Shown piece after piece: positions 46,371-64,000 of a stretch of DNA of 64,000 nt. Positions within the stretch are counted from its first letter, which is position 1; each line of letters starts with the position of its first letter. Below the pieces are notes generated by a model. That model was not told the origin of the DNA. It saw only the letters and a program-made list of their open reading frames with translations, and did not search any database. A program made the position numbers and the translations under genes. The DNA is from an uncultured Candidatus Saccharibacteria bacterium. GTDB lineage: Bacteria > Patescibacteriota > Minisyncoccia > UBA11713 > 2-01-FULL-45-33. The stretch covers positions 3,466 to 67,465 of the forward strand of contig CAYXFX010000001.1 of the NCBI GenBank assembly GCA_964464405.1, given 5' to 3'.

Positions 46371-48101
46371 ATGCAAAACCAAGAAATTGCGCGTATTTTG
46401 CGCAATATGTCAGCGTACTATGAAATGGAGGGAGTGCAGTTTAAACCTCGCGCTTATGAAAAAGCGGCTTTAGGAATTGAAACGCTTGACCGGGAAGCTA
46501 AAGAAATTTTCAAAGAAGAAGGGCCAAAGGGACTTCTTAAAATTCCCGGCGTGGGAAAAGGAATTGCAGAACATGTGGAGCATTTATTAAAGAACGAACA
46601 CTTTCCAGAATATGACCGTTTAAGGAAAAAAATTCCAGTAAATATTTCAGAACTTACTGCAGTCGAAGGAATAGGCCCTAAGATGATAAAAACGCTCTAT
46701 CAGAAATTAAAAATAAAAAATGTAAAAGAGCTTGAAGCGGCCGCGCGTGCTGGGAAGCTCCGAAAACTTCCAAGAATGGGCGAAAAGCTTGAAGCAAAAA
46801 TATTGAAAGGTATTGAATTTCAAAACAGGGATGGGGGAAAGAGATTTTTGCTCGGAGAAATTTTGCCGCTTGCGCGCAGAATCAGAGAGCGATTGCTTAA
46901 AGTGCAAGGAGTAGAGAAAGTAGAAATTGCCGGATCGCTCCGCAGGATGCAGGAGACAATCGGCGATTTGGATTTTCTTGCCATCGCCAAAAATCTAAAA
47001 ACCGTTTCTGATTATTTTTTAAAAATGCCTGAAGTTGTTCATGTATACGCGAAAGGAAACACGAAAGTTTTAGTGCGCCTGAATTCAGGAATTGATGCTG
47101 ATCTTCGTGTTTTGCCCCGCGAATCATTCGGCGCCGCACTCCAGTATTTTACCGGGAACAAGGACCACAATATTGAAGTGCGAAAAATTGCAATTAGGCA
47201 TGGATATAAATTAAATGAATATGGCCTTTTTCGCGGAAAGAAAATTATAGCTGCTGAAACAGAAGAAGAGGTTTATAAAAAACTTGGGATGGAAATGCCG
47301 CCGCCGGAGATGAGATTGAATCAGGGAGAGATTGAGCTTGCGCTAAATAAAAAAATTCCTGAGCTTATCGGTTACGGCGACCTTAAGGGCGATCTCCAGA
47401 TTCAAACTTTGTGGACCGACGGAAAAAATTCGATCGAAGATATGGCGCGCGAAGCGGAGAAACTCGGACACGAATATATTGCAATCACAGATCATACACG
47501 CGCGCTTGCAATGACCGGCGGCTCGGATGAAAAAAAACTTTTAAAACAAATGGACGAGATTGATAAAATCAATCGTAAATTGAAAATTGAAAATTGTAAA
47601 TTAAAAATTCTTAAGGGCGCGGAAGTTAACATAATGAAAGATGGAACTTTGGATATTGACGACAAGACACTCGCAAAATTAGACGTTGTAGGCGCGGCGG
47701 TGCATTCGCTTTTTAATCTGCCGAAAGCAGAGCAGACAAAAAGGATTATCCGTGCCATGGAAAATTCGAACGTAGATATTATTTTTCATCCAACCGGACG
47801 GATTATCAACCGCCGCGAGCCATATGAAATTGATATCGAAGAAATCATAAAAGCCGCGAAGCGCACAGGAACCGTATTGGAGATTGACGGACACCCGTGG
47901 CGCCTGGATTTGAAGGATGAGCATGTCCGTATGGCTCGAGAAACTGGGGTTAAAATGGTAATTGATACCGATGCCCACTCGGTTTACGAAATGAGCTATT
48001 TAGAATACGGCATTGCGCAAGCACGAAGAGGTTGGGCTAGCAAGGAAGACATTATAAACGCTTGGCCGATTGAAAAAATGCTGGGATTTTTAAAAAAGTA
48101 A
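46371..48101 (+). CDS. polX: family X DNA polymerase with C-terminal PHP domain
   Basis: N-terminal Pol beta-like lyase/HhH region (IPGVGKGIA), nucleotidyltransferase D residues, PHP motifs (ITDHT, HP). Confidence 0.85.
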   Translation: MQNQEIARILRNMSAYYEMEGVQFKPRAYEKAALGIETLDREAKEIFKEEGPKGLLKIPGVGKGIAEHVEHLLKNEHFPEYDRLRKKIPVNISELTAVEGIGPKMIKTLYQKLKIKNVKELEAAARAGKLRKLPRMGEKLEAKILKGIEFQNRDGGKRFLLGEILPLARRIRERLLKVQGVEKVEIAGSLRRMQETIGDLDFLAIAKNLKTVSDYFLKMPEVVHVYAKGNTKVLVRLNSGIDADLRVLPRESFGAALQYFTGNKDHNIEVRKIAIRHGYKLNEYGLFRGKKIIAAETEEEVYKKLGMEMPPPEMRLNQGEIELALNKKIPELIGYGDLKGDLQIQTLWTDGKNSIEDMAREAEKLGHEYIAITDHTRALAMTGGSDEKKLLKQMDEIDKINRKLKIENCKLKILKGAEVNIMKDGTLDIDDKTLAKLDVVGAAVHSLFNLPKAEQTKRIIRAMENSNVDIIFHPTGRIINRREPYEIDIEEIIKAAKRTGTVLEIDGHPWRLDLKDEHVRMARETGVKMVIDTDAHSVYEMSYLEYGIAQARRGWASKEDIINAWPIEKMLGFLKK

Positions 48102-51945: not shown

Positions 51946-53283
51946 ATGGAGGATATCATGGCGATCTTTGAAAAAATGGCTGAACGAAAAATAGAGAGAA
52001 TGTTTATTTCACCAAACGATGATTCTATTGAAGAAACCAAATGGCTAATATCTGCGATGAGGGCAATGGGGCATGAAAAAGTGCTTCTTTCGTGTTATCC
52101 GGAGGTCGGGCTTAGGTCTTGCGTCGCCATACATGACCTCACATTGAGCGGTTCTATAACAGGGGAAAACGCTTTGGAAAAAGGGCCTATCGGCGGCGTA
52201 CGATTTTATCCGTATTTTTCGGAAAAAGATTGCTTACTAGACGTGTTGAAGCTTTCACAAGCAATGACAAAAAAAGCTTCAGCGGCGGGATTAAACCGCG
52301 GAGGCGCAAAATCAGTAATTTGGGGAGATCCAAAAACCGAAAAAACTTTAGCACTGCTTGCGCAATTGGCAGACGAAGTCGATTTTTTAAAAGGCAAATA
52401 CATTGCGGCTGAAGACATGGGGATTGCCGTTTCGGATTTGAGCTTTATGCGCCAAAGAACCCCGTTTGTTGCTGGGCTTCCGGAAACATATATGCGCGTA
52501 AAAAATGGCAGTGTTTTTAGAGGATCCGGTGAACCTGGTCCGATTACCGCAAAAGGCGTTATGTTGGGGATTAAAGCATGCCTTAAATTTTTAGGGCTAG
52601 GTGACTTAAATGGCAAGGTAATAGCCATTCAGGGTTTGGGGAGCGTAGGATTTCGGCTTGCGAGGTATGCGCATCAGGAAGGAGCTGAGCTTGTTTGTTG
52701 TGATAAGGAAGAGGATAGGTTGCGGCATTTCTGCGAAGAATTTCAAAAAGACGCAGCTATCGGCACTCCCGCAAGATTAGTAAGTTTGGACGCGATATAT
52801 TCTGCCAAATGTGACATCTTTGCCCCATGCGCTTTCGGTGGTGTGTTGAATGAAAAAAACATAGAAAAGTTGGACTGTAAAATTGTTGCAGGTTCTGCAA
52901 ACAATCCCTTGGCCAATTTGGAATGTGCGCGTTTGCTCAAGGAGAAAAGAGTGCTTTACGCGCCGGATTTTATTATAAATGCCGGAGGGCTCATAAATGT
53001 AGATGATGAGCTTAGATCAGACGGTTACAACGTAGAGCGCGTATTGCGTAGAATTGCAGGCACCATTCCCCGCAACCTTTTCAGAGTTTTTCTCGAATCA
53101 AAAGCTTTAGAACTTTCTCCTGCGGAAGTTGCGGAAGTTTTAGCGCGAGAACGAATCGAAACTCAAAAGAAAAAATTAGAATTTCTTTCCGATATGTTTA
53201 AAAAATCCGCAATCGAAATTGCTCGCATGCTTGAAAATGAAGAAAATCTGCTACGCGAGCTGATGAAAGTAATAACTAATTAA
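51946..53283 (+). CDS. Leu/Phe/Val dehydrogenase-family amino-acid dehydrogenase
   Basis: AAGLNRGGAKSVIWGDP (catalytic Lys motif), IQGLGSVGFRLARYAHQEGAELV (GxGxxG), CKIVAGSANNPL, YAPDFIINAGGLINV; aligns along the length with Bacillus LeuDH from memory. Confidence 0.8.
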   Translation: MEDIMAIFEKMAERKIERMFISPNDDSIEETKWLISAMRAMGHEKVLLSCYPEVGLRSCVAIHDLTLSGSITGENALEKGPIGGVRFYPYFSEKDCLLDVLKLSQAMTKKASAAGLNRGGAKSVIWGDPKTEKTLALLAQLADEVDFLKGKYIAAEDMGIAVSDLSFMRQRTPFVAGLPETYMRVKNGSVFRGSGEPGPITAKGVMLGIKACLKFLGLGDLNGKVIAIQGLGSVGFRLARYAHQEGAELVCCDKEEDRLRHFCEEFQKDAAIGTPARLVSLDAIYSAKCDIFAPCAFGGVLNEKNIEKLDCKIVAGSANNPLANLECARLLKEKRVLYAPDFIINAGGLINVDDELRSDGYNVERVLRRIAGTIPRNLFRVFLESKALELSPAEVAEVLARERIETQKKKLEFLSDMFKKSAIEIARMLENEENLLRELMKVITN

Positions 53284-53299
53284 TTTTTTTTAAATTTAA

Positions 53300-53327
53300 A
53301 AACCCGTAATTTACGGGTTTTTTATTT
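53300..53327. terminator. bidirectional terminator AAACCCGTAA-TTT-ACGGGTTT + T-run
   Basis: Between convergent dehydrogenase (+) and ammonia-lyase (-) genes. Confidence 0.65.
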
Positions 53328-53343
53328 GATTATCCTGTTATAA

Positions 53344-54918
53344 CTAAAATTCTTTATTGCGGATTTGCTTAACTACTTTTGCCCAGTCTTCATCAAGAGG
53401 CTTGTCGATGCTTACAAACTTTATTTTCTTGCGCAGTTTTTTATAAATGTGGGAAGTAAAATGCGCAAACTTCGAAGGATCTTTTTTGCTTTTTAAATCC
53501 ATTCCTTGCGCAGCGATTATCAAAACTCCCGCAAGCAGAATTTCAAATTTTTTGTTAAATTCTAAAGACATTTCTGCTGATCCGAAACCCAAACTTACGA
53601 CATCTTGATTATAGCTTTCCGCAGTTCTTCGATGGATACTATAAGGTGCGGATAAGTAACAGTTTTTTGCAAAAACACTGGAAATGGCGAGGCCCATTCC
53701 TTTAAATCCACTGTTAAATCCCGGCTCTTCTCCGGCCAAACTTGCTCCTAATCCTCGGTTGTATTTTTCGTTTAGCAGCCGCTCTTTTAAGGCGTTTAAT
53801 TCATCTGCTACATCGAAAAGAGAAAGGCGGAGAAAATCCATGGCTTTTGCAATATAAAATCCTGAAAAGTTTCCGGTGTGGTGAACTCTTTTTTCCTGTA
53901 AATTTACAATCGGATTGTCGTTTGCGGAATTTATTTCATTTGTTATCCAGATTTGGGCGAGATTCATAGTTTCAATTGCAGGTCCGAAAAGTTGCGGTGC
54001 GCATCTTATGCAGTAGGGGTCTTGGAGTTCAATTGCAGATTCTACGATCTCCGAAGCTCCTTCCGCTATTTTTTTAACTTGTTCTCTTAAGTCATCGATA
54101 TTTTTTGTTAAGAAGCTTTTCAATAAAAACGTTCTAAGTAAGTCTGCTGCTTTTTTTTGCCCGGGATGATTTTTCATTTGCTGAACAAAGTTATCAAATG
54201 GGTCGGTCATCCCACCCAGCGCTTCGGTTGCCATTGCAGTGGCGGCAACGGAAAGATTTAACATGTATTCGGCGTCATAGAACGCAAGCGAGGCCATTGC
54301 TGTCATAACGGACGTTCCGTTTACAAGAGACAACCCTTCCTTTTCGTGCAGAACTAGCGGGGAAATTCCAAGTTTTTTAAAAAGATGTTCAGTTTTACAA
54401 ATTTTTCCTTTATATTCAACTTTTCCTTTTCCTTGCAACGCTTGCGCTATGGAGGATAGCGGAATCAAATCCCCGCTTGCCCCAATTGATCCTTCCTCGC
54501 GCATTACCGGAATAATGTCTTTGTTTAGTAATTCAATAATTCTTTCAATCTTTTCAATTCCAATTGCCGAGCATCCTTCTTTGGAAAGTGAATTGGCGCG
54601 AAGCAGCATGGTTGCGCGCACTATTTCCTTTTCTAATTTTTTTCCTATTCCGCAGGAAAGCGAATCTATGAGACGTTTCTGGAATTGGACACGTTTGTCT
54701 TCCGGAATTATTTTCCCGACGTTTGCGCCAACCCCCATTTTATCTCCGTAAGCATAAACTCCGCTTTCTAAATAAAATTTACGCCCGTCCGTAATTTTTT
54801 TTCTAAAATCAGAATTTGCCGACAGCACTACAGGCACGTTCTTTCTTGCAACCAAAATAACATCTTCGATTGTTAAGGATTCGCCGTCAACAATAGCCGC
54901 GCCTTCATTGCTTTTCAT
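53344..54918 (-). CDS. MIO-dependent aromatic amino-acid ammonia-lyase family (HAL/PAL/TAL)
   Basis: GSIGASGDLIPLS containing the Ala-Ser-Gly MIO-forming triad; overall collinearity with HAL/PAL; 524 aa. Confidence 0.8.
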   Translation of the reverse strand: MKSNEGAAIVDGESLTIEDVILVARKNVPVVLSANSDFRKKITDGRKFYLESGVYAYGDKMGVGANVGKIIPEDKRVQFQKRLIDSLSCGIGKKLEKEIVRATMLLRANSLSKEGCSAIGIEKIERIIELLNKDIIPVMREEGSIGASGDLIPLSSIAQALQGKGKVEYKGKICKTEHLFKKLGISPLVLHEKEGLSLVNGTSVMTAMASLAFYDAEYMLNLSVAATAMATEALGGMTDPFDNFVQQMKNHPGQKKAADLLRTFLLKSFLTKNIDDLREQVKKIAEGASEIVESAIELQDPYCIRCAPQLFGPAIETMNLAQIWITNEINSANDNPIVNLQEKRVHHTGNFSGFYIAKAMDFLRLSLFDVADELNALKERLLNEKYNRGLGASLAGEEPGFNSGFKGMGLAISSVFAKNCYLSAPYSIHRRTAESYNQDVVSLGFGSAEMSLEFNKKFEILLAGVLIIAAQGMDLKSKKDPSKFAHFTSHIYKKLRKKIKFVSIDKPLDEDWAKVVKQIRNKEF

Positions 54919-54921
54919 TGT

Positions 54922-56481
54922 TTGCTCCTCTTATCTACCTGCACTATACTTTTATCAGATAAGAAAAGCAAACGGAGCACAAAAGTTATGGCCATACTGC
55001 CTGTCTATCAGATGTTTCTAAGAAGTAAAAGTTTTTTTCCTAAAAAACCAGCAATAATTTTTGAAGGTTTAGGCGGATTGGGGCGCGTACTTACATACCA
55101 AGATTTGCATAACGAAGTGGAACGGGTGGTGCATTTGATTTTGGATCATACTGACTTGGCGAGTCATCCTGCTTGCAGGGTGTCCGTATGCCTTCCAAAT
55201 TCTCCAGATTTCGTTTCTGTCTATCTTGCTCTTTTAAAATTAGGGATGGTGAGTGTTTTAATAAATCCGGCGCTGCCGGAGACAAGAAGAAACCAAATTG
55301 TTTACGATACCGCCTCAAAACTTTTAATTGATGAAAATTGGCTGAAAACATTCCGAAAGTCGTGTTACCTTTGCGAGTACGAATTTTCGAATTGTCTGAA
55401 AAACGCAGAACCCAAAGCCGACGACACTTCAGTTATTCTTTTTTCGTCGGGGACAACAGGAGAGCAGAAAGGTGTTGAGCTTACATATAACAATATTTTT
55501 AATAATGTTTTTTACACAAATTCGCTTACTGGCATGACGCCGGATGATAGGATAATGTGCTTTGTTCCTCTTACGCATTGTTTCGGGTTAAATTTTGTAA
55601 TGAGCGCTTGTTTTTATACCGGCGCAACGCTGGTGCTTCATGAGAAGTTTAATTTGGAACAAGTGCTTGATTCTTGTGTAAAAAATCGTGCGACGATGTT
55701 TTTTGCGGTGCCGGCGGTTTACAACACATGTTTAAAGTTTGGAATTGAACCGTTTTATTTTTCCTCCGTGCGTTATTTCTTCTACGCGGCTGATTCTCTT
55801 TCTCCAGAATCGTGCGACAGGTGGGAGCGCGAATATGGCAGGAAAATTTACACAGGGTGGGGCTTAACTGAAACTTCTCCATTTGCGACATCGAATCACG
55901 CTTCTATATTTAGGCGCGGAAGTGTGGGGAGGCCGATTCCTGGAGTGGAAATCCAAATTGTAAACGAGAACGGAAAAGATTTGGGTAAAGTGAAAAGATT
56001 TTGGGGTAATTATAAAAATTATTGCGGAGAAATTCGAGTGCGCGGGCATAATGTTATGAAAGGATATTTAAATAATCCCGAGGAAACAAAAAAAGCAATT
56101 GACAAAGATGGATGGTTTAGCACCGGGGATATTGGGTACATAGATTCGGAAGGTTATCTTCATATGATAGATAGAAAAAAAGATATGATTAATGTGGGAG
56201 GAGAAAAAGTTTGGCCGGCTATGGTTGAAAAAAGAATTCTTGCGTGCGACGCGGTGTGCGAAGTTGCCGTAGTGGGTATTCCTCATGAAACCATGGGAGA
56301 GGTACCGAAAGCTTTTATTGTTCCGAAAAATAAGAAAGTTACAAAGGCGCAGATTCATGAATTTTTATCTTCTAAAAAAATACTGACAAAAAACGAGTAT
56401 CCGAGAGAAATAGAATTCATTGATGCGTTGCCTAGAAATCCTTCCGGCAAGATTTTAAAAAATGAATTGAGAAAAAAATAA
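54922..56481 (+). CDS. AMP-forming acyl/aryl-CoA ligase, 4-coumarate-CoA ligase-like
   Basis: ILFSSGTTGEQKGVELTYNN (box I), GEIRVRGHNVMKGYLNNPEETKKAIDKDGWFSTGDIGYID (closely resembles 4CL box II GEICIRG..IMKGYLN), GWGLTETS. Confidence 0.8.
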   Translation: MLLLSTCTILLSDKKSKRSTKVMAILPVYQMFLRSKSFFPKKPAIIFEGLGGLGRVLTYQDLHNEVERVVHLILDHTDLASHPACRVSVCLPNSPDFVSVYLALLKLGMVSVLINPALPETRRNQIVYDTASKLLIDENWLKTFRKSCYLCEYEFSNCLKNAEPKADDTSVILFSSGTTGEQKGVELTYNNIFNNVFYTNSLTGMTPDDRIMCFVPLTHCFGLNFVMSACFYTGATLVLHEKFNLEQVLDSCVKNRATMFFAVPAVYNTCLKFGIEPFYFSSVRYFFYAADSLSPESCDRWEREYGRKIYTGWGLTETSPFATSNHASIFRRGSVGRPIPGVEIQIVNENGKDLGKVKRFWGNYKNYCGEIRVRGHNVMKGYLNNPEETKKAIDKDGWFSTGDIGYIDSEGYLHMIDRKKDMINVGGEKVWPAMVEKRILACDAVCEVAVVGIPHETMGEVPKAFIVPKNKKVTKAQIHEFLSSKKILTKNEYPREIEFIDALPRNPSGKILKNELRKK

Positions 56482-57529: not shown

Positions 57530-57893
57530 GTCTTTCCTTGTGTTGGAGATTTACCTTTTGTAATTTTACTATTATTTAGTATAAAAGTCAAGCAAAAACA
57601 ATATATGAAAGGAGAAAAACAAATTCTAAACCACAGCGTCATCGCATGTCACGGGTTTTTTGTTGATGAATATTTTGTAAAGCCGGAGTTGTGTTCGTTA
57701 AATATTTTAATTAAGTTCTTAGTAGCGCCGATGTAAAAACTTTTGTCTTTCAAACTCTGGATTATGTAAACGTAGTACATAAACAAAATATAAAGAAATG
57801 CCCTCTGTCGCACAAGGCTATGGAGGGCACTCCTTTGCAGTTTTTGTTTCGAAGTGCTGCGCACTCCGTAGCTTCCTTTTGGAAGCGAAGGAG

Positions 57894-58244
57894 TGGAAGT
57901 GGGCGGGATCGAACCGCCGTCGGAAAAGCGCAAGAATTGCGGTTTACAAGCTTATCCTGCAAAATGCAAGAAATTTTTGCTCCTTTTTCAAACATTGCCT
58001 CGGAGCTTTTAACAATGCGCGCCTCGCTGTATTACACCTCTTACCTCGTAGCGAGAATCGGAGAAGAGATGCCTACGCTAAATTTAAGCGTAAGAAGTTG
58101 CGAGCTGCATTGGCCTCAACGCATTCGCTACTTTTGAAAATAAGTTTGCACTTATTGGTTGTGCTGACAGTTTATGGAGATAACGGCACATACTCCGCCT
58201 GAGCGCAAAATCAGTTGCTTTTCCTCGAATCCTAATTCACCCCC
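57894..58244 (-). ncRNA. ssrA: tmRNA (ssrA)
   Basis: 5' GGGGGUGAAUUAGGAUUCGAGG pairs with 3' ..CACUUCCA giving tRNA-Ala-like acceptor with G3:U wobble; T-arm GGCGG-UUCGAUC-CCGCC; internal region around AAUAAGU-GCA-AAC resembles the E. coli resume site; putative tag ORF GCA..UAA (58149..58084); smpB is adjacent. Confidence 0.8.
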
Positions 58245-58249
58245 GTATA

Positions 58250-58696
58250 TTATATTTCTTTCAAAGTGCGTTCGATTTTTCTTTTGTCTTCCCGTTCTTT
58301 AATTCTTTCGCGTTTGTCGTGCTGTTTAAATTTCCTTGCAATTGCAATTTCGAGCTTTATTCTCGAACCCTTAGTATACACCCGAATTGGGAGGATTGTC
58401 AATCCTCGTATTGCCGCTTTTCCTATCAAATAATCAATTTCTTTTTTATGCAAAAGCAGTTTTCGATCTCTTGAAGGATCGTATTCTTTCGGAGTGTTTT
58501 TCGGCTGATACGGGGAGACGTTTGCTCCCACCAAATAAAATTCGCCGCGTCTCGGAAAAACATAAGAACCTTCCAAACTCATTTTATGAGTTTTTATTGC
58601 TTTTACTTCATGCCCAAAAAGCTCAAGCCCCGCTTCAAAGGTTTCGAGCCATTCAAATTCAAACTTTGCTTTTCTGTTTTCCGCTAAAACTGCCAT
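58250..58696 (-). CDS. smpB: SsrA-binding protein SmpB
   Basis: SmpB family motifs (GHEVKAIK, LLLHKKEI), stop 5 nt before tmRNA 5' end. Confidence 0.9.
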   Translation of the reverse strand: MAVLAENRKAKFEFEWLETFEAGLELFGHEVKAIKTHKMSLEGSYVFPRRGEFYLVGANVSPYQPKNTPKEYDPSRDRKLLLHKKEIDYLIGKAAIRGLTILPIRVYTKGSRIKLEIAIARKFKQHDKRERIKEREDKRKIERTLKEI

Positions 58697-58776: not shown

Positions 58777-60306
58777 ATGCTCAGAGCACAAATTAGAGAG
58801 GAAATAGCAAAAATTGTCGGGGACGAAATTAAATTTTCTGTTGAAGCGTCAGACAATCCGGAGCATGGAGATTATTCTTCCAACGCTGCTTTAGTGATTG
58901 CGAAACAAGAAGGCAGAAATCCAAAAGAAGTTGCGGAAAAACTAAAAAATAGTTTACTTAGCAACCGAGTTGCTAAGTTGGTTGAAAGAATAGAAGTTGC
59001 TGGCCCAGGATTTTTGAATTTTTTTATCAGCTCCGCCAGCCTGAGGACCGCGCTGTTAGAAAAACTTTCGGATAAAAAATTTGGTCTCGCGTTTTCCGGT
59101 TCGCCGAAGCGGATCAATCTTGAATTTGTTTCCGCAAATCCGACCGGCCCTTTAACTATGGCAAATGGAAGGGGCGGTTTTTATGGAGATGTTTTGGCAA
59201 ACATTTTGGAAGCAGTTGGTCATAAGGTTACGCGCGAATACTATATCAACGATGCTGGCAATCAGGTGCGACTGTTGGGAGAATCAATTGAAGCGGCAGA
59301 AGGCAAGCGCGAGATGAAAGAAGAATATTATCAGGGTGAATACATTAAAGATCTTGCGGGGATGAGTTCCACAAAAGCAATTCAGAAATTGCTGAAAGAT
59401 ATAAAAATTTCTCTTAAGAAAGCAGGAATCAAATTTAATGTCTGGTTCTCGGAAGAAAAAAAGTTACGCAAAACAGGCGAATTTAAAAAAACTTTGCAGG
59501 AGTTTAAAAAAAAAGGACTAATTGAAAAAAGAGACGGGGCTGTTTGGTTTGGAGACAGGGTTTTAATAAAATCTGGCGGCGACCCCACTTACTTATTAGT
59601 AGATATAGCTTATCTCCACAATAAAATCATTACACGGAAATTTGATGAAGCGATAATTATTCTTGGTGCTGATCATCATGCTGAAGCGGAACAAGTTAAA
59701 AAGTGCGCTGTTGTTTTGGGAATACCGGAAGAAAAAGTAAAAATTTTTCTTCTGCAGCTCGTAAGGCTAGTGTCTCAGGGCAAAGAAGTGCGCATGTCTA
59801 AGCGTTCGGGAAAGTACGTAATGCTTGATGAGCTTTTGGAACAGGTCCCGGTGGATGTTGCAAGATGGTTTTTTTTAGAGCGTACACTGTCAACCCACAT
59901 GGATTTTGATCTGGACTTGGCAAAAGAGCGTTCCAAGAAAAATCCGGTATACTATGTGCAATACGCGCACGCAAGGGGCTGTTCAATTCTTAGCAAAGCG
60001 AAAATTCAAAAGTTAAAAGTAGATTTAAAGTTATTAAGCGAACCCGAAGAACTCGCGCTTATTAAAAAAATCTTGCAGATCCCCGAAATTATTGAAGATA
60101 TTTCAACTGATTATCAAGTAAACCGGCTTACTCGCTATACATATGAGCTTGCGCGAATGTTCACCAATTTTTATGAGAAGCATAAGATTATTAATGAAAA
60201 AAACCCAGAGTTAACCGGCGCGCGTCTTTTTTTGGTGAGTGCTGCCAAAGAAACGCTGGCTTTCACACTTTCTTTAATGGGTATTTCCGCTCCGAAAAAA
60301 ATGTAA
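58777..60306 (+). CDS. argS: arginyl-tRNA synthetase (compact form)
   Basis: N-terminal Arg_tRNA_synt_N-like, SANPTGPLTMANGRGG class I core, C-terminal anticodon-binding DALR-like region. Confidence 0.8.
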   Translation: MLRAQIREEIAKIVGDEIKFSVEASDNPEHGDYSSNAALVIAKQEGRNPKEVAEKLKNSLLSNRVAKLVERIEVAGPGFLNFFISSASLRTALLEKLSDKKFGLAFSGSPKRINLEFVSANPTGPLTMANGRGGFYGDVLANILEAVGHKVTREYYINDAGNQVRLLGESIEAAEGKREMKEEYYQGEYIKDLAGMSSTKAIQKLLKDIKISLKKAGIKFNVWFSEEKKLRKTGEFKKTLQEFKKKGLIEKRDGAVWFGDRVLIKSGGDPTYLLVDIAYLHNKIITRKFDEAIIILGADHHAEAEQVKKCAVVLGIPEEKVKIFLLQLVRLVSQGKEVRMSKRSGKYVMLDELLEQVPVDVARWFFLERTLSTHMDFDLDLAKERSKKNPVYYVQYAHARGCSILSKAKIQKLKVDLKLLSEPEELALIKKILQIPEIIEDISTDYQVNRLTRYTYELARMFTNFYEKHKIINEKNPELTGARLFLVSAAKETLAFTLSLMGISAPKKM

Positions 60307-60307
60307 T

Positions 60308-60844
60308 ATGCCGTTTTATTTTATAACCGGAAACAAAAATAAATTTGAGGAAATAAAAGCCGTTTTTCCTGCAATTGAAATGCTGGAGATAGACTTGCAC
60401 GAAATTCAGGAAATTGATCCGCACAAAATTATTGAGCATAAATTAACCGAAGCGTTGAAGCATCATTCAGGAGAATTTATTATTGAGGATACTTCATTAT
60501 ATTTGGAAGCGTTAAACGGTTTGCCCGGACCGCTAGTTAAATGGTTTTTAAAAACAATAGGCAATAGCGGACTTGCGGAAATTGCGGAAAAACTTAATAA
60601 CGGCAAAGCAGAAGCTAAAACAATAATCGGATATGCAAATGGAAAGGATATTCAATTTTTTGAAGGGCAGGTTGCGGGAACGATTGTTTTTCCGCGCGGA
60701 GAAACAGGCTTTGGATGGGATGTTATTTTTCAGCCCGAAGGGTACGCAAAAACTTTTGCAGAAATGAGCGAAGAAGAAAGAGCTGGCTTGAAAATGCGCC
60801 GAATCGCTGCGTTGAAACTCAAAGAATTTCTAAAGTCCTTTTAA
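60308..60844 (+). CDS. rdgB: non-canonical purine NTP pyrophosphatase (RdgB/Ham1)
   Basis: ITGNKNKFEE, EDTSL, GFGWDVIFQPEG. Confidence 0.85.
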   Translation: MPFYFITGNKNKFEEIKAVFPAIEMLEIDLHEIQEIDPHKIIEHKLTEALKHHSGEFIIEDTSLYLEALNGLPGPLVKWFLKTIGNSGLAEIAEKLNNGKAEAKTIIGYANGKDIQFFEGQVAGTIVFPRGETGFGWDVIFQPEGYAKTFAEMSEEERAGLKMRRIAALKLKEFLKSF

Positions 60845-60873: not shown

Positions 60874-63800
60874 ATGTCGGCAAAGAAAAATGAAGAAAAA
60901 AACGAAAAAGAAGGGTCATCTTTTTCTTTTCCAAAAATGGAAGAGGAGATTTTGGAATTTTGGGAGGCAAATAAAATTTTTGAGAAGAGCGTTGAGCAAA
61001 GAAAAAAAGGACAGCCGTTTGTTTTTTATGAAGGGCCTCCTACTGCAAACAATATTCCTCATATGGGACATTTTGAAACGCGTGTTTTTAAAGACGTGAT
61101 TTTGAGATATAAAACAATGCGCGGTTTTTATGCGCCTCGACGCGCCGGGTGGGATACTCACGGTTTGCCGGTTGAAGTGGAAGTAGAAAAACGTTTGGGA
61201 ATAAAAAATAAAAAAGAAATCGAAGAATACGGAGTCGCGGAATTTAACAAAAAATGCAGAGAATCCGTTTGGCAGTACAAAGAACTTTGGGAGAAGATGA
61301 CTTCGCGTATGGGCTTCTGGATAGATATGGGCCGTCCGTACATTACTTATGAAAATTCTTACATTGAATCTCTTTGGGCGATCATCAAAAAGTTTTCAGA
61401 TAATAAATATTTGTACGAAGACTACAAGGTTGTTCCCTGGTGCGCAAGATGCGGAACGGCGCTTTCTTCGCACGAGGTAGCTCAAGGATATGAAAAAGTA
61501 AAAGAGGAGTCGGTTTATGTAAAATTTAAAGTGAAAGCGGAGGGGGATTGGGCAGGCACTTCTTTTTTGGTGTGGACTACTACGCCATGGACATTGCCAG
61601 GGAATGTTGCGCTTGCAGTAAATCCAAAAATCGAATATGTGGTTGTAGAAAAAGATGGAGAACGTCTGATTTTGGCGGAAGCAAGAGTTTCTGTTTTGGG
61701 AGAAGGTTGGAAATTGTTGAAAAAAATTAGTGGTAAGGAACTCGCCGGTCTTCAATACATACCACTTTATAAATCCGAGCTTGTTTCAGATAAATCTAAA
61801 AATATATATGTAGTTGTCGAGGGCGATTTTGTTTCCACTGAAGAAGGCACCGGAATAGTTCATATTGCACCAGCTTTCGGAGATGATGACTTTCAGATTT
61901 CAAAAAAGTATGACTTGCCTGTTTTGGTTTCGACGAACGAAAGAGGGCTCATGCAAACGCCTAAAACGCCTTGGGATGGAGAATGGTTCAAGAAAGCAGA
62001 TAAAAGGATAACCGAAGATTTAAAATCACGCAGGATTTTATTTAAATCAGAAATTTACGAGCACGATTACCCTTTTTGCTGGCGATGTAAAAATCCGTTA
62101 ATGTATTTTGCGCGGAAAGCATGGTGGATTGACGTAAATGCAGTCCGTGAAAAACTTTTGGAAAACAACGAGCAAATAAATTGGTTTCCGGATCATATTA
62201 AGCACGGGAGATTCGGAGAGTGGTTAAAGGAAAAAAAGAATTGGGCATTTTCCCGCGAACGATATTGGGGTACTCCTCTTCCTGTATGGAGATGCGATCC
62301 TCAAGCCGGAGGATGCGGGAAATTGGAAGTAATCGGTTCGATTGAAGAGTTAAGTACGCGCGCCGCAAGCTCCGGCAACCGCTACTTGATGATGCGTCAC
62401 GGAGAAAGCGAAAATAATGTTGCTAGAATTTTGAGTTCTAACATAGAAAAAGACAATTATGGCCTGACCTCAAATGGGAAAAAACAAGTCGAAAAAACCG
62501 CAAAGGAAATATTGAAAAAAAATATAAAAATTGACTTGATATTTACCTCTCCATTTTTAAGATCCAAGCAATCTGCCGACGAAATTGCGCGTATTTTAAA
62601 TATTGATGAGAGTAAAGTGGAAATTGATCCCAGATTTTCAGAAATAAATTTCGGAATTCTTTCCGATAGATCCTATTCGGAATACGATGAATTTTTTGAA
62701 ACGCCGGAAGATCAATTTTCTAAGGCACCTTCCGACGGCGAGACACTCGCGGATGTTAAAAAAAGAGTATATGCGGCCATTTTGGAAATTGAATCAAGAT
62801 ATAAAAATAAAAATATTTTAATTGTTGCGCACGAGGACTCTTTATGGATGCTATGGGCTTCTGTTTTGGGAAAGGACGAAAAAGAAACTCGAAAAGCAAA
62901 AGAAAATAACGGCGGAGATTATATAAAAAACGGGGAACTTATTGAACTTGACGCCGGAGGTTTATGTTTGCCTAAAGACGAGAAGTTTGTTTTGGATCTG
63001 CATAAGCCTTATATAGATAAAGTGACTCTTAAATGCGAGTGCGAGGGTGAGATGAAAAGAGTTCCCGAGGTGTGCGATGTCTGGTTTGATTCGGGTTCCA
63101 TGCCTTTTGCACAGATGCATTGGCCTTTCGATAACAATTTAGAATATCCCGCAGACTATATAGTAGAAGCTGTGGATCAGACGCGCGGGTGGTTTTATAA
63201 TCTTCTTTCGGTAGGAACACTTCTGGGATTTGATGCGCCGTATAAAAATGTAATTTCTTTGGGGCATGTTTTAGATTCAAATGGAAAAAAAATGTCTAAA
63301 TCTTTAGGCAACGTTGCTGATCCCATGATGCTAGTTGAAAAATATGGGGCGGATCCTGCGCGATGGTATTTTTTTACAATAAATCAGCCATGGGATTCAA
63401 AATTATTTAAAGAAGACGACATAAAAGACGCATCCCGCAGATTTTTTATGATTTTGTGGAATGTACTTAAGTTTTATAAAATGTATGAAAGCGTAAAAAA
63501 AAGCGCATCTGTTAAAGCGCCAAAATTCATTATTAATAAATGGGCGCTTATAAAACTTTCGGAAATTTCGGAATCTATTACAAAAAAATTAGATGCGTAC
63601 GACGTTGTGGGAGCTGCGCGCGATTTGGAAAATTTTGTTACGGAAGATATTTCCCGTTGGTATGTTCGGAGAATCAGGGATGTGATGAAAAACGAATCAG
63701 ATGATTCAAAAGAAACAGCGCAAGTTTTGATTCATTTGCTTTCAGAGATTTCTAAATTGCTGGCGCCATTTGCTCCTTTTATTTCGGAAAAAATTTGGCA

Positions 63801-64000
63801 GGAACTTGGCGGAAAGAAAAGCGTACATTTGGAGGATTGGCCGAACTTTGGTCTCGCGCCTTCCGTTTCGCTCGCGCTTAACCCTTCCTCGAAGACTCGG
63901 GGGGCTCCGACACGCGTACGCGAAAATGAAAGTGCTTGGCTTCTTCAAAACATGGAGATTGTGCGAAAGGTTGTTGGTTTGGCTTTGGAGGCGCGCCAAA
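60874..64000 (+). CDS. ileS: isoleucyl-tRNA synthetase, 3'-truncated by window end, carrying an inserted histidine-phosphatase domain
   Basis: Open frame from ATG 60874 to window end with no stop (absent from ORF track, presumably because it has no stop); FYEGPPTANNIPHMGH (HIGH region), editing-domain YPFCWRCKNPL, IKHGRFGEWL, DLHKPYIDKV, VWFDSGSMPF, KMSKSLGN; insertion of ~210 aa with RHGESENN / TSPFLRSKQSA / IVAHEDS motifs at ~62350-62990. Confidence 0.85.
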   Translation, partial: MSAKKNEEKNEKEGSSFSFPKMEEEILEFWEANKIFEKSVEQRKKGQPFVFYEGPPTANNIPHMGHFETRVFKDVILRYKTMRGFYAPRRAGWDTHGLPVEVEVEKRLGIKNKKEIEEYGVAEFNKKCRESVWQYKELWEKMTSRMGFWIDMGRPYITYENSYIESLWAIIKKFSDNKYLYEDYKVVPWCARCGTALSSHEVAQGYEKVKEESVYVKFKVKAEGDWAGTSFLVWTTTPWTLPGNVALAVNPKIEYVVVEKDGERLILAEARVSVLGEGWKLLKKISGKELAGLQYIPLYKSELVSDKSKNIYVVVEGDFVSTEEGTGIVHIAPAFGDDDFQISKKYDLPVLVSTNERGLMQTPKTPWDGEWFKKADKRITEDLKSRRILFKSEIYEHDYPFCWRCKNPLMYFARKAWWIDVNAVREKLLENNEQINWFPDHIKHGRFGEWLKEKKNWAFSRERYWGTPLPVWRCDPQAGGCGKLEVIGSIEELSTRAASSGNRYLMMRHGESENNVARILSSNIEKDNYGLTSNGKKQVEKTAKEILKKNIKIDLIFTSPFLRSKQSADEIARILNIDESKVEIDPRFSEINFGILSDRSYSEYDEFFETPEDQFSKAPSDGETLADVKKRVYAAILEIESRYKNKNILIVAHEDSLWMLWASVLGKDEKETRKAKENNGGDYIKNGELIELDAGGLCLPKDEKFVLDLHKPYIDKVTLKCECEGEMKRVPEVCDVWFDSGSMPFAQMHWPFDNNLEYPADYIVEAVDQTRGWFYNLLSVGTLLGFDAPYKNVISLGHVLDSNGKKMSKSLGNVADPMMLVEKYGADPARWYFFTINQPWDSKLFKEDDIKDASRRFFMILWNVLKFYKMYESVKKSASVKAPKFIINKWALIKLSEISESITKKLDAYDVVGAARDLENFVTEDISRWYVRRIRDVMKNESDDSKETAQVLIHLLSEISKLLAPFAPFISEKIWQELGGKKSVHLEDWPNFGLAPSVSLALNPSSKTRGAPTRVRENESAWLLQNMEIVRKVVGLALEARQ

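What the first reader, a model, noticed from the sequence alone, without database searches (positions are those of the whole stretch)
62350..62990. IleRS with an in-frame histidine-phosphatase (PGAM/SixA-like) domain inserted in the catalytic core
The ileS reading frame is continuous from 60874 to the window end, with no stop across the inserted region. Between the conserved blocks ...PLPVWRCDPQAGGCGKLEVIGSIEEL and FVLDLHKPYIDKV...VWFDSGSMPF there are about 210 extra residues. Typical bacterial IleRS has only ~30-50 residues here. The extra residues contain the histidine-phosphatase branch-1 signatures in the canonical order and spacing. These are LMMRHGESENN (the RHG catalytic His motif, LxRHGExxxN), TSPFLRSKQSA (the SP..R..TA motif) and ILIVAHEDSL (the second catalytic His). 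So a complete phosphoglycerate-mutase-like phosphatase appears to be embedded in an aminoacyl-tRNA synthetase. I am not aware of this architecture being described. It could modify an aminoacyl-adenylate, tRNA 3' end or a signalling nucleotide. It could also be a degenerate, purely structural insertion. CPR proteins are rich in insertions, but those are usually low-complexity rather than a recognisable catalytic domain.
Basis: partly seen in the sequence, partly recalled or inferred. Interest (0 to 1): 0.85.

Follow-up and report, generated by a model that had tools for sequence, protein, structure and literature searches.

The report
Phosphatase domain nested inside isoleucyl-tRNA synthetase
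The enzyme that loads isoleucine onto tRNA in this tiny-genome (CPR/Patescibacteria) bacterium carries a complete, apparently active phosphatase inside its catalytic core; this form is widespread across that bacterial radiation, but I found no published description and its function is unknown.

Summary
The ileS frame (60874 to the window end) is uninterrupted. Residues 500-704 (nt 62371-62985) form a complete branch-1 histidine phosphatase domain (Pfam His_Phos_1, 109 bits, E 2.5e-31). They replace a 6-residue loop at the tip of the zinc knuckle of a type-2 IleRS. It is not an assembly artefact: all 120 best full-length homologues have it, and 178 representatives of 50%-identity clusters match insert plus flanks at E<=1e-30. 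It was found in 27 of 80 type-2 ileS loci sampled from species genomes, nearly all with CPR labels. The catalytic residues R508, H509, R563, E623 and H653 are kept in 171-173 of 173 proteins. In related lineages the same phosphatase is a separate gene directly upstream of ileS (7 of 7 checked). Other lineages carry it at two further sites in IleRS. AlphaFold models are confident (domain pLDDT 97; full protein pLDDT 91, pTM 0.86). Eight completed literature searches and NCBIfam gave no description. The substrate is unknown. My working hypothesis (about 0.3) is a phosphatase acting on the tRNA-Ile acceptor end. The main rival is an unrelated housekeeping phosphatase lodged in a permissive loop.

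The parts
60874..64000 (+). ileS, type-2 (eukaryote-like) isoleucyl-tRNA synthetase. It runs off the window end; the full protein P0121 has 1173 aa, so the gene would end near 64395.
   Evidence: TIGR00392 862 bits, cut-off 621; best PDB matches 1ILE and 8C8U.
61060..61071 (+). HIGH signature (HMGH, residues 63-66), canonical form
61573..61605 (+). CP1 editing-domain motif WTTTPWTLPGN (residues 234-244)
   Evidence: (W234-P238 invariant).
62266..62352 (+). WGTPLPVW strand and the first half of the zinc knuckle (Cys474, Cys481), up to IGSIEEL just before the insert
   Evidence: (C474 and C481 nearly invariant).
62371..62985 (+). Inserted segment, residues 500-704: a complete histidine phosphatase domain plus short linkers, nested in the zinc-knuckle loop ('site A')
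   Evidence: AF2 domain model pLDDT 97.1. Foldseek top hits PspA, PhoE, GpgP, CobC.
62386..62910 (+). Pfam His_Phos_1 (PF00300) match, residues 505-679
   Evidence: 109-114 bits, E 2.5e-31 to 9e-33.
62395..62403 (+). RHG motif: Arg508, nucleophile His509, Gly510
   Evidence: (R 173/173, H 173/173).
62560..62562 (+). Arg563 (SPFLR), second phosphate-binding arginine
   Evidence: (172/173).
62740..62742 (+). Glu623 (GET), general acid
   Evidence: (171/173).
62830..62832 (+). His653 (AHE), distal catalytic histidine
   Evidence: (173/173).
62992..63042 (+). LDLHKPYID and the second half of the zinc knuckle (Cys721, Cys723), where the IleRS sequence resumes
63076..63111 (+). DVWFDSGSMPFA active-site segment. 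The loop after it is 'site B', where other lineages carry a His_Phos, a P-loop kinase-like domain, or (P0378) a 184-aa insert with a weak GNAT match.
63289..63303 (+). KMSKS signature (residues 806-810)
63535..63939 (+). Anticodon-binding domain (Pfam Anticodon_1, residues 888-1022)
58777..60306 (+). argS, the conserved upstream neighbour of ileS in CPR. In 'split' lineages the standalone phosphatase gene lies between argS and ileS.
60308..60844 (+). Ham1/ITPase-family gene between argS and ileS. This is context only; it was not found there in the other sampled loci.

Best explanation
SHOWN: the segment is a complete PhoE/PspA-like branch-1 histidine phosphatase domain with all its catalytic residues. 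It is nested in the zinc-knuckle hairpin, between the WGTPLPVW strand and the DVWFDSG active-site segment, in the second half of the Rossmann fold of a type-2 IleRS. From my own knowledge this hairpin is probably the 'CP3' connective peptide; that was not verified here. This form of IleRS is widespread in Patescibacteria. In related lineages the same phosphatase is a separate gene directly upstream of ileS. In others it sits at two further sites in IleRS. INFERRED (about 0.6): the phosphatase is catalytically active and works together with IleRS, either within one chain or as a separate partner. COMMITTED MECHANISM (about 0.3, inference only): it is an additional hydrolytic site of the synthetase that removes a phosphomonoester from the acceptor end of tRNA-Ile. 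That would be a 2'- or 3'-phosphate left by nuclease cleavage or cyclic-phosphate opening, or a blocking phosphate added by a toxin. IleRS holds the tRNA while His509 attacks the phosphate, Glu623 protonates the leaving ribose hydroxyl, and the phospho-histidine is then hydrolysed. The repaired end can then be aminoacylated. This would resemble the way the CP1 editing domain acts on the same tRNA end.
For: Real, complete domain: (pLDDT 97.1). Conserved active site: R508, H509, R563, E623 and H653 in 171-173 of 173 embedded proteins, although the domains are only about 35-55% identical. Recurrence: all 120 best full-length hits carry it; 178 representatives of 50%-identity clusters match at E<=1e-30, and nearly all of the 150 listed match flank, insert and flank in one stretch; 27 of 80 sampled type-2 ileS loci carry it, nearly all with CPR labels. 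Coupling to IleRS: (a) 7 of 7 of the closest standalone homologues are encoded directly upstream of ileS on the same strand, some overlapping it. (b) Split and fused forms interleave in both the IleRS-body and domain distance analyses. (c) His_Phos domains occur at three different IleRS sites, A, B and C. Copies within one protein are only 21-33% identical and all keep the catalytic residues. (d) Body and domain distances correlate, r = 0.62. (e) The full-length AF2 model is confident through both junctions, pLDDT 91.3 and pTM 0.86. Weak hints for the tRNA-end reading only. Extra catalytic modules known in aminoacyl-tRNA synthetases act on the tRNA acceptor end (established knowledge of editing domains). 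GNAT and P-loop kinase-like domains, whose families include enzymes that act on tRNA ends, are inserted in the same IleRS loops in relatives. The standalone forms are very basic, about +16 net charge.
Against: No experiment or computation here identifies the substrate. The nearest structures are small-molecule metabolic phosphatases: phosphoserine, glucosyl-3-phosphoglycerate, alpha-ribazole phosphate and riboflavin-pathway enzymes. To my knowledge no branch-1 histidine phosphatase is known to act on RNA ends. The window's own domain has zero net charge. The domain evolves faster than the IleRS body (mean distance 0.67 against 0.45). A general tRNA-repair role would not obviously be specific to IleRS. 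The presence of GNAT and kinase inserts in the same loops can equally be read as evidence that these loops simply tolerate insertions.
Confidence: 0.3

Rival explanations
1. Hitch-hiker: an independently useful housekeeping phosphatase with a small-molecule substrate unrelated to IleRS. It began as a neighbouring gene, or was captured, became lodged in a permissive surface loop of an essential, constitutively expressed protein, and can no longer be lost. IleRS acts only as a scaffold and expression vehicle.
For: The closest structures are metabolic small-molecule phosphatases. In relatives the same IleRS loops also host unrelated GNAT and kinase-like domains, which suggests general tolerance to insertion. 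The domain evolves faster than the IleRS body. The argS-ileS-recO gene order is widely inherited in CPR, so adjacency of the standalone gene may be partly inherited synteny rather than independent evidence. The window's domain is not basic.
Against: His_Phos specifically recurs with IleRS in four arrangements: sites A, B and C, and as the upstream gene. The copies are anciently diverged. Split and fused forms interleave. No other architecture for this phosphatase clade appeared among the hits, although those queries included IleRS flanks and were biased towards IleRS. The model predicts rigid packing.
Confidence: 0.25
2. A nucleotide or adenylate-directed phosphatase coupled to the IleRS reaction. 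It would hydrolyse a phosphorylated small molecule that binds or leaves the synthetic site: a nucleotide product or by-product, or a phosphorylated isoleucyl-adenylate-mimicking inhibitor. This would relieve product inhibition or give self-protection.
For: The insert flanks the segment carrying the amino-acid/adenylate pocket residues, DVWFDSG. CobC-like (nucleotide-type substrate) models are among the better NCBIfam hits. One relative has a small-molecule-type P-loop kinase-like domain beside the phosphatase. Most relatives carry the G/AxHH motif linked to antibiotic hyper-resistance, which shows that inhibitor pressure acts on this enzyme family.
Against: There is no direct evidence. Dephosphorylating AMP would be wasteful. 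Branch-1 histidine phosphatases attack phosphomonoesters, not the mixed anhydride of an aminoacyl-adenylate (established mechanism). This would not explain why only IleRS has it.
Confidence: 0.2
3. A protein phosphatase. The domain would remove a regulatory or toxin-installed phosphate (phospho-His, Ser, Thr or Tyr) from IleRS itself or from another translation component.
For: The superfamily includes protein phosphatases such as SixA, PGAM5 and Sts-1, and kinase toxins that inactivate aminoacyl-tRNA synthetases exist, such as HipA acting on GltX (my knowledge). There is a weak SixA-model hit of 38-42 bits. One relative has a kinase-like domain next to the phosphatase.
Against: The SixA cut-off of 74.5 bits is not met. 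The domain has the cap subdomain typical of small-molecule enzymes, and its nearest structures are of that type. No cognate kinase was identified in the window.
Confidence: 0.1
4. A catalytically dead structural or docking module.
For: CPR proteins are rich in insertions. Some family members have shortened inserts of about 160 aa.
Against: The nucleophile His, both Arg, the acid Glu and the distal His are kept in 171-173 of 173 sequences despite 35-55% overall identity, and in every extra copy examined. Even the short inserts keep them.
Confidence: 0.04
5. An assembly chimera or a mis-called frame.
For: None found.
Against: The same architecture appears in hundreds of independent assemblies from NCBI, JGI, ENA and Logan, with insert-region identities down to about 32-36%. 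An identical protein is on a 156,792-bp NCBI contig. There is no compositional break and there are no boundary repeats.
Confidence: 0.01

Closest known systems
Type-2 (eukaryote-like) bacterial IleRS, e.g. Thermus thermophilus IleRS (PDB 1ILE) and Priestia megaterium IleRS2 (8C8U)
   Same: The whole synthetase body matches: HIGH, KMSKS, the CP1 editing motifs, the Cys4 zinc knuckle, the anticodon-binding domain and the DUF5915 C-terminus. It scores 824 bits to 1ILE.
   Different: About 205 residues forming a phosphatase domain replace the 6-residue loop at the tip of the zinc knuckle.
PhoE / PspA / CobC / GpgP-type branch-1 histidine phosphatases (e.g. 4IJ5, 1H2E, 4QIH, 6NRU)
   Same: Same fold (TM 0.7-0.8) and the same catalytic Arg-His...Arg...Glu...His set.
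   Different: Only 19-28% identical. No NCBIfam subfamily cut-off is reached. Those enzymes are free-standing, whereas this one is nested in, or encoded next to, IleRS.
NCBIfam NF040702 'isoleucine--tRNA ligase, N-acetyltransferase domain-containing'
   Same: A precedent for an IleRS carrying an extra enzymatic domain. A relative of the window protein, P0378, carries both GNAT and His_Phos domains.
   Different: The extra domain is a different enzyme. The window protein scores 339 bits against a cut-off of 1999, so it is not a member.
Mycobacterial Rv2228c-type bifunctional RNase H / CobC-like acid phosphatase (NCBIfam NF005567)
   Same: A branch-1 histidine phosphatase fused to an enzyme that acts on nucleic acids. 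It is the second-best NCBIfam phosphatase hit, 75-78 bits.
   Different: That is an end-to-end fusion with RNase H, not an insertion into a synthetase. The cut-off of 326 bits is not met.
Phosphatase activities attached to other tRNA enzymes, recalled from memory: the HD domain of the E. coli CCA-adding enzyme (2',3'-cyclic phosphodiesterase/phosphatase), polynucleotide kinase-phosphatases, and the histidine phosphatase domain of yeast TFIIIC subunit tau55
   Same: They show that phosphoesterase modules can be attached to tRNA-handling machinery. Tau55 is an example of a His_Phos domain whose role there is still unclear.
   Different: They have different folds (HD, HAD, metallophosphoesterase) or different host proteins. 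None is an aminoacyl-tRNA synthetase. This is an analogy only and was not tested here.
6-phosphofructo-2-kinase / fructose-2,6-bisphosphatase
   Same: It pairs a P-loop kinase domain with a His_Phos domain. Its phosphatase domains are among the PDB hits. Relative P0376 has His_Phos plus a P-loop kinase-like insert.
   Different: The window protein has no kinase domain. The domain order and host protein differ. The kinase-like domain matches only weakly to APS and shikimate kinases.

Membership tests
Isoleucyl-tRNA synthetase (NCBIfam TIGR00392, equivalog) | Whole-protein HMM score above the curated cut-off | tested here: met
   862.1 bits against a cut-off of 621.4, even though the window protein is truncated.
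Isoleucyl-tRNA synthetase | Class I signature motifs HIGH and KMSKS, and the CP1 editing motifs | tested here: met
   HMGH 63-66, KMSKS 806-810, WTTTPWTLPGN 234-244, GTGIVH 325-330.
Type-2 (eukaryote-like) IleRS | Closer to IleRS2 than to IleRS1 structures; C-terminal DUF5915 instead of the bacterial zinc-binding domain | tested here: met
   824 and 747 bits to 1ILE and 8C8U, against 406 bits to S. aureus IleRS1 1FFY. The full-length P0121 carries PF19302.
Isoleucyl-tRNA synthetase | Aminoacylation activity, and being the only IleRS of the genome | not testable with these tools
   Only 64 kb of the genome is available. Activity needs biochemistry.
Histidine phosphatase superfamily, branch 1 (Pfam PF00300) | HMM score above the gathering threshold | tested here: met
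   109.3 bits in the full protein and 114 bits for the insert alone, against a cut-off of 21.7.
Histidine phosphatase superfamily, branch 1 | Catalytic core: RHG nucleophile His, two Arg, a Glu acid and a distal His | tested here: met
   R508, H509, R563, E623 and H653 are present in the window and in 171-173 of 173 homologues.
Histidine phosphatase superfamily, branch 1 | Alpha/beta fold of the dPGM/PhoE type | tested here: met
   AF2 model pLDDT 97.1. Foldseek probability 1.00 and TM 0.7-0.8 to PspA, PhoE, GpgP and CobC.
Histidine phosphatase superfamily, branch 1 | Phosphomonoesterase activity through a phospho-histidine intermediate | not testable with these tools
   Needs an enzyme assay comparing wild type with H509A.
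Cofactor-dependent phosphoglycerate mutase (dPGM; NCBIfam NF038349, TIGR01258 and others) | Equivalog score above the cut-off | tested here: not met
   dPGM_arch 86-91 bits against 225; pgm_1 32 bits against 81.7. dPGM structures superpose with worse rmsd than the phosphatases do.
SixA phosphohistidine phosphatase (TIGR00249) | Equivalog score above the cut-off | tested here: not met
   38-42 bits against 74.5, matching the N-terminal half only.
CobC alpha-ribazole phosphatase (TIGR03162) / PspA phosphoserine phosphatase (NF045917) | Equivalog score above the cut-off | tested here: not met
   CobC 70-74 bits against 162.9; PspA 48-53 bits against 350.
IleRS with GNAT domain (NF040702) | Exception-model score above the cut-off; presence of a GNAT domain | tested here: not met
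   339.5 bits against 1999. There is no acetyltransferase hit in the window protein.
Recently arrived mobile insertion (mobile element, foreign DNA) | Flanking repeats, a compositional break, or sporadic distribution | tested here: not met
   There are no boundary repeats and no GC break. The insert is inherited largely vertically with the host gene, r = 0.62. Intein splicing motifs were not searched for specifically.

The most novel reading that the evidence does not exclude
Across much of the Candidate Phyla Radiation, IleRS would be a three-active-site enzyme: synthesis, editing and a phosphatase. The phosphatase would act on the acceptor end of tRNA-Ile or on an aminoacyl-adenylate-like ligand. 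It would remove a blocking 2'/3'-phosphate or pyrophosphate left by nucleases or installed by toxins, or inactivate a phosphorylated inhibitor. That would make it a self-repairing or self-defending synthetase. The GNAT and kinase-like inserts in relatives would then belong to the same set of tRNA-end-modifying domains.
Probability: 0.2. Interest if true: 0.9.

Novelty: new variant of a known kind. Interest (0 to 1): 0.7.

Why it matters
Aminoacyl-tRNA synthetases are among the most thoroughly studied enzymes. Their known extra catalytic modules are editing domains. Here a conserved phosphatase with all its catalytic residues sits inside the catalytic core of an essential synthetase. It is maintained across at least 150 clusters defined at 50% identity in a major bacterial radiation. 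It exists either nested in IleRS or as an adjacent separate gene, and it was recruited at several sites. That points to an unrecognised requirement linked to isoleucine charging, or at least to a striking case of one enzyme nested in another. If the phosphatase acts on tRNA or on an IleRS ligand, it would define a new auxiliary activity of synthetases. It could also say something about how ultra-small symbiotic bacteria maintain or protect translation. There is a practical point too: the insert makes NCBI label many of these proteins only 'class I tRNA ligase family protein' or even 'histidine phosphatase family protein', so a curated model is needed.

Tried and rejected
- **Assembly artefact or chimera:** rejected by recurrence in independent assemblies and by continuous composition.
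- **Degenerate domain:** rejected by the catalytic-residue census.
- **Glycolytic dPGM, SixA, CobC or PspA identity:** all subfamily cut-offs fail.
- **Ham1 (ITPase) as a conserved functional partner:** rejected. It lies between argS and ileS only in this window. The 163-aa ORF at that position in L004 is unrelated and lineage-specific.
- **Recent duplication within the gene as the origin of the site-B and site-C copies:** rejected. Copies are only 21-33% identical.
- **Domain net charge as a test for RNA binding:** inconclusive. The window's domain is neutral and the standalone forms are very basic, but lysine-rich proteins are usual in these genomes.
- **Species-genome scan with a domain-only alignment:** failed because the alignment had no sufficiently conserved stretch.
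- **Species-genome scan with P0378:** it did not find that lineage, but it gave a useful sample of 80 type-2 ileS loci.
- **AFDB search for the full-length model:** the library was unavailable.
- **Literature:** eight completed searches with varied terms found no description. One further search failed on a syntax error.
- **Geometry:** the position of the phosphatase pocket relative to the synthetic site, editing site and tRNA could not be measured, because model coordinates are not exposed.
Full report

Yes. Translating 60874-64000 on the + strand gives 1042 codons with no stop. This translation is identical to the first 1042 residues of a 1173-aa public protein, P0121, found on a 156,792-bp NCBI contig. 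The gene therefore ends about 395 nt beyond the window.

Pfam finds tRNA-synt_1, His_Phos_1 (residues 505-679, 109.3 bits against a gathering score of 21.7, E 2.5e-31) and Anticodon_1. The NCBIfam ileS equivalog scores 862 bits against a cut-off of 621.

Against T. thermophilus IleRS (PDB 1ILE), residues 14-498 align to 5-481 and residues 707-992 align to 488-789. About 208 residues in the window therefore stand where Thermus has six. Against an insert-free CPR IleRS the insert is residues 500-704, nt 62371-62985.

The insert lies between the two halves of the Cys4 zinc knuckle (Cys474 and Cys481 before it, Cys721 and Cys723 after it). This knuckle sits between the WGTPLPVW strand and the DVWFDSG active-site segment of the second half of the Rossmann fold. 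IleRS connective peptides are named CP core, CP1, CP2 and CP3 (PMC11685878). That this hairpin is CP3 is my recollection and was not verified here.

**2. Is it an artefact?**

No.
- GC content is continuous (0.36-0.40 in the insert, 0.34-0.44 in the flanks) and there are no boundary repeats.
- All 120 best full-length homologues (48-100% identity, from NCBI, JGI, ENA and Logan) carry PF00300 together with the IleRS domains.
- An exhaustive search of representatives of 50%-identity clusters found 178 proteins at E<=1e-30. Nearly all of the 150 listed match flank, insert and flank in one contiguous stretch.
- A scan of species-representative genomes returned 80 type-2 ileS loci, and 27 of them carry the nested domain. 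Their labels are Sungiibacteriota, Paceibacterota, Moraniibacteriota, Kaiserbacteria, Parcubacteria, Saccharibacteria-labelled MAGs, Peribacteria, Gracilibacteria and 'Patescibacteria group'. The exceptions are three records labelled only 'bacterium' and one labelled Micavibrio.
- None of the Bdellovibrionota, Proteobacteria, Clostridia, Desulfobacterota or DPANN archaeal loci has it. Some CPR loci also lack it (Uhrbacteria, a Microgenomates MAG, some Parcubacteria).
- The closest named relatives of the window protein are Candidatus Giovannonibacteria. One, from genome GW2011_GWC2_44_9, is in UniRef. From my own knowledge that genome belongs to the 2015 CPR genome set.

**3. Is the phosphatase intact?**

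Yes, as far as sequence and predicted structure can show.
RHG (R508, H509, G510) aligns with the nucleophile motif of Hydrogenobacter PspA (4IJ5), and AHE (H653) aligns with its distal histidine.
- In 173 full-length nested proteins, R508 and H509 are kept in 173, R563 in 172, E623 in 171 and H653 in 173. The domains are only about 35-55% identical to the window's.
- In an 87-sequence full-length alignment these residues are invariant, on a par with core IleRS residues.
- The domain evolves faster than the IleRS body (mean distance 0.67 against 0.45). The fixed catalytic set therefore reflects selection on catalysis.
- An AlphaFold2 model of the domain has pLDDT 97.1 and pTM 0.92.
- Its best structural matches are PspA phosphoserine phosphatase, PhoE, mycobacterial glucosyl-3-phosphoglycerate phosphatase, a riboflavin-pathway histidine phosphatase, CobC and the fructose-2,6-bisphosphatase domain (TM 0.7-0.8). 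dPGM mutases superpose less well.
- No NCBIfam subfamily cut-off is reached: dPGM_arch, CobC, PspA, SixA, RNase H/acid phosphatase. It is a phosphatase-type member of branch 1 with no assigned substrate.

**4. Evidence linking it to IleRS**

(a) *Split forms.* The nearest standalone relatives are 186-199 aa, 34-42% identical, and cover the insert from end to end. All seven that I looked up are encoded directly upstream of a type-2 ileS on the same strand, sometimes overlapping it by a few bases. The gene order is argS - phosphatase - ileS - (small ORF) - recO. The argS-ileS-recO block is also conserved around nested-type ileS, including the window.

(b) *Interleaving.* The IleRS bodies next to standalone phosphatases do not group together; they are scattered among nested-type IleRS. 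For example, the IleRS next to P0023 is at distance 0.30 from nested P0237 but at 0.38 or more from any other split-type IleRS. The seven standalone domains sit inside a 59-tip subclade that otherwise consists of nested domains. This implies repeated fusion or fission, a pattern typical of proteins that work together. The trees are neighbour-joining and midpoint-rooted, so the direction of change is not resolved.

(c) *Several sites.* Mapping unusual family members onto an insert-free IleRS shows His_Phos domains at three sites:
- Site A, the zinc-knuckle loop, is the site in the window and in most proteins.
- Site B, the loop after WFDSGS-PFA, is used in P0335 and by the second copy in P0337.
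- Site C, the loop between the KMSKS region and the anticodon-binding domain, is used by the second copies in P0320 and P0335.
- P0335 has no site-A copy.

Copies within one protein are only 21-33% identical, so they are not recent duplications, and all keep the catalytic residues.

(d) *Co-inheritance.* Body and domain distances correlate, r = 0.62.

(e) *Packing.* The full-length AlphaFold2 model (pLDDT 91.3, pTM 0.86) is confident through both junctions: blocks 491-510 score 88 and 95, and blocks 691-710 score 91 and 96. This suggests rigid packing rather than a floppy tether.

**5. What argues for caution**

In relatives the same IleRS loops also carry other enzymes:
- P0378 has a GNAT domain inside the CP1 region and a 184-aa site-B insert with a weak GNAT match.
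- P0376 has a P-loop kinase-like domain at site B, with weak matches to APS and shikimate kinases.

NCBIfam already has a curated model for an IleRS with a GNAT domain. These loops may therefore simply tolerate insertions.

In addition, the nearest structures are metabolic phosphatases, the window's domain has zero net charge, and the conserved synteny means the seven adjacency observations are not fully independent. I could not obtain model coordinates, so the key question remains open: does the His509 pocket face the synthetic site, the editing site or the tRNA path?

**6. Mechanism**

*Shown:* the domain is nested, complete, under purifying selection and widespread; it is interchangeable with an adjacent gene; and it was recruited at several sites.

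*Inferred (about 0.6):* it is an active phosphomonoesterase that works with IleRS.

*My committed but weakly supported mechanism (about 0.3):* it removes a 2'- or 3'-phosphate, or a phosphate added by a toxin, from the acceptor end of tRNA-Ile while IleRS holds the tRNA. This would restore a chargeable end, by analogy with how CP1 acts on the same end.

*Rivals:*
- an unrelated housekeeping phosphatase lodged in a permissive loop (0.25);
- a phosphatase for a nucleotide or an adenylate-mimic that binds IleRS (0.2);
- a protein phosphatase (0.1);
- a dead structural module (0.04);
- an artefact (0.01).

**7. Comparison with what is known, and novelty**

The host is a bona fide type-2 IleRS and the insert is a bona fide branch-1 histidine phosphatase. 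All testable defining features are met for both. It is not a member of the dPGM, SixA, CobC, PspA or ileS_w_GNAT families, because their cut-offs are not met.

Eight completed full-text searches with varied wording found no paper describing a histidine phosphatase in or beside IleRS. NCBIfam release 20 has no model for it. Source annotations are generic: 'class I tRNA ligase family protein', and even 'histidine phosphatase family protein, partial'.

The architecture is therefore present in public databases but, as far as I can tell, undescribed and unstudied. I rate it a new variant of a known kind, an aminoacyl-tRNA synthetase carrying an appended or inserted domain. What is unusual is that the insert is a conserved catalytic domain inside the catalytic core.

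**8. Verdict**

The function is unresolved but experimentally tractable. Interest 0.7.

Noticed in passing
Relatives P0320, P0335 (1419 aa) and P0337; loci L016 and L055: Some IleRS carry two histidine phosphatase domains, at different sites: the zinc-knuckle loop, the loop after WFDSGS-PFA, and the loop before the anticodon-binding domain. Copies are only 21-33% identical and all keep the catalytic residues. The P0335 cluster occurs on a 1.06-Mb contig whose neighbours include purA and a DAHP synthase, so its lineage may not be a typical minimal CPR organism.
   Followed up: partly
Relatives P0378 (1561 aa, locus L015) and P0376 (1395 aa): P0378 combines the phosphatase with a GNAT acetyltransferase domain inside the CP1 region and a 184-aa site-B insert that matches GNAT only weakly. 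Its cluster occurs on contigs up to 2.1 Mb, and the lineage was not identified. P0376 has a P-loop kinase-like domain (Walker A GACGAGKTT; weak APS/shikimate kinase matches) in the loop next to the phosphatase.
   Followed up: partly
window 61060-61071 (HIGH motif) compared with family alignment A3: The window IleRS has the canonical HMGH motif. Of 173 nested-type relatives, 106 have the swapped G/AxHH motif, which a 2023 study (PMC10485003) linked to mupirocin hyper-resistance in type-2 IleRS, and 44 have HxGH.
   Followed up: partly
window 60308-60844 (+): A Ham1/ITPase-family gene (Pfam E 1e-40) is wedged between argS and ileS, with gaps of 1 and 29 nt. It was not found at this position in any of the other loci searched.
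   Followed up: yes
window 51946-56481: A cluster of amino-acid catabolism-type genes that I would not expect in a minimal CPR genome: a Glu/Leu/Phe/Val dehydrogenase (51946-53283, +), an aromatic amino acid lyase of the HAL/PAL family (53344-54918, -; E 4e-136), and an AMP-binding acyl-CoA-ligase-like enzyme (54922-56481, +).
   Followed up: no
window 57891-58244 (-) and 58250-58696 (-): A tmRNA gene (Rfam 93 bits; tag peptide ANLFSKVANALRPMQLATSYA) lies next to a 148-aa ORF. That ORF is in the position where SmpB lies upstream of argS in related loci (L004, L010, L013). The ORF itself was not checked.
   Followed up: no
window about 63862-63918 (IleRS residues 997-1015): Apart from the N-terminal 14 residues, this is the only low-confidence stretch (pLDDT below 50) of the full-length model. 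It is a Ser/Pro/Ala/Arg-rich segment in the C-terminal part, of the low-complexity kind common in CPR proteins.
   Followed up: no
Family census and short-insert relatives P0161, P0165, P0175, P0176, P0188, P0197: 13 of 173 nested-type IleRS have lost both halves of the zinc-knuckle cysteine pattern and 25 have lost one half. A subgroup has a shortened phosphatase of about 160 aa that still keeps the catalytic residues.
   Followed up: partly
locus L056 (Candidatus Gracilibacteria): The ileS reading frame and its phosphatase domain are broken into pieces under genetic code 11. This is expected if the lineage reads UGA as glycine (code 25). It was not retranslated.
   Followed up: no
locus L010, 6577-8905: Downstream of the standalone phosphatase, only a 325-aa C-terminal IleRS fragment is called. 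The near-identical loci L011 and L012 have an intact 923-aa ileS. This is probably a frameshift or assembly error in L010.
   Followed up: no
window 40160-42832 (+) and 46371-48101 (+): A P-type cation ATPase (890 aa) and a family-X DNA polymerase with a PHP domain (576 aa). A PolX gene also lies upstream of the argS-ileS region in locus L010.
   Followed up: no
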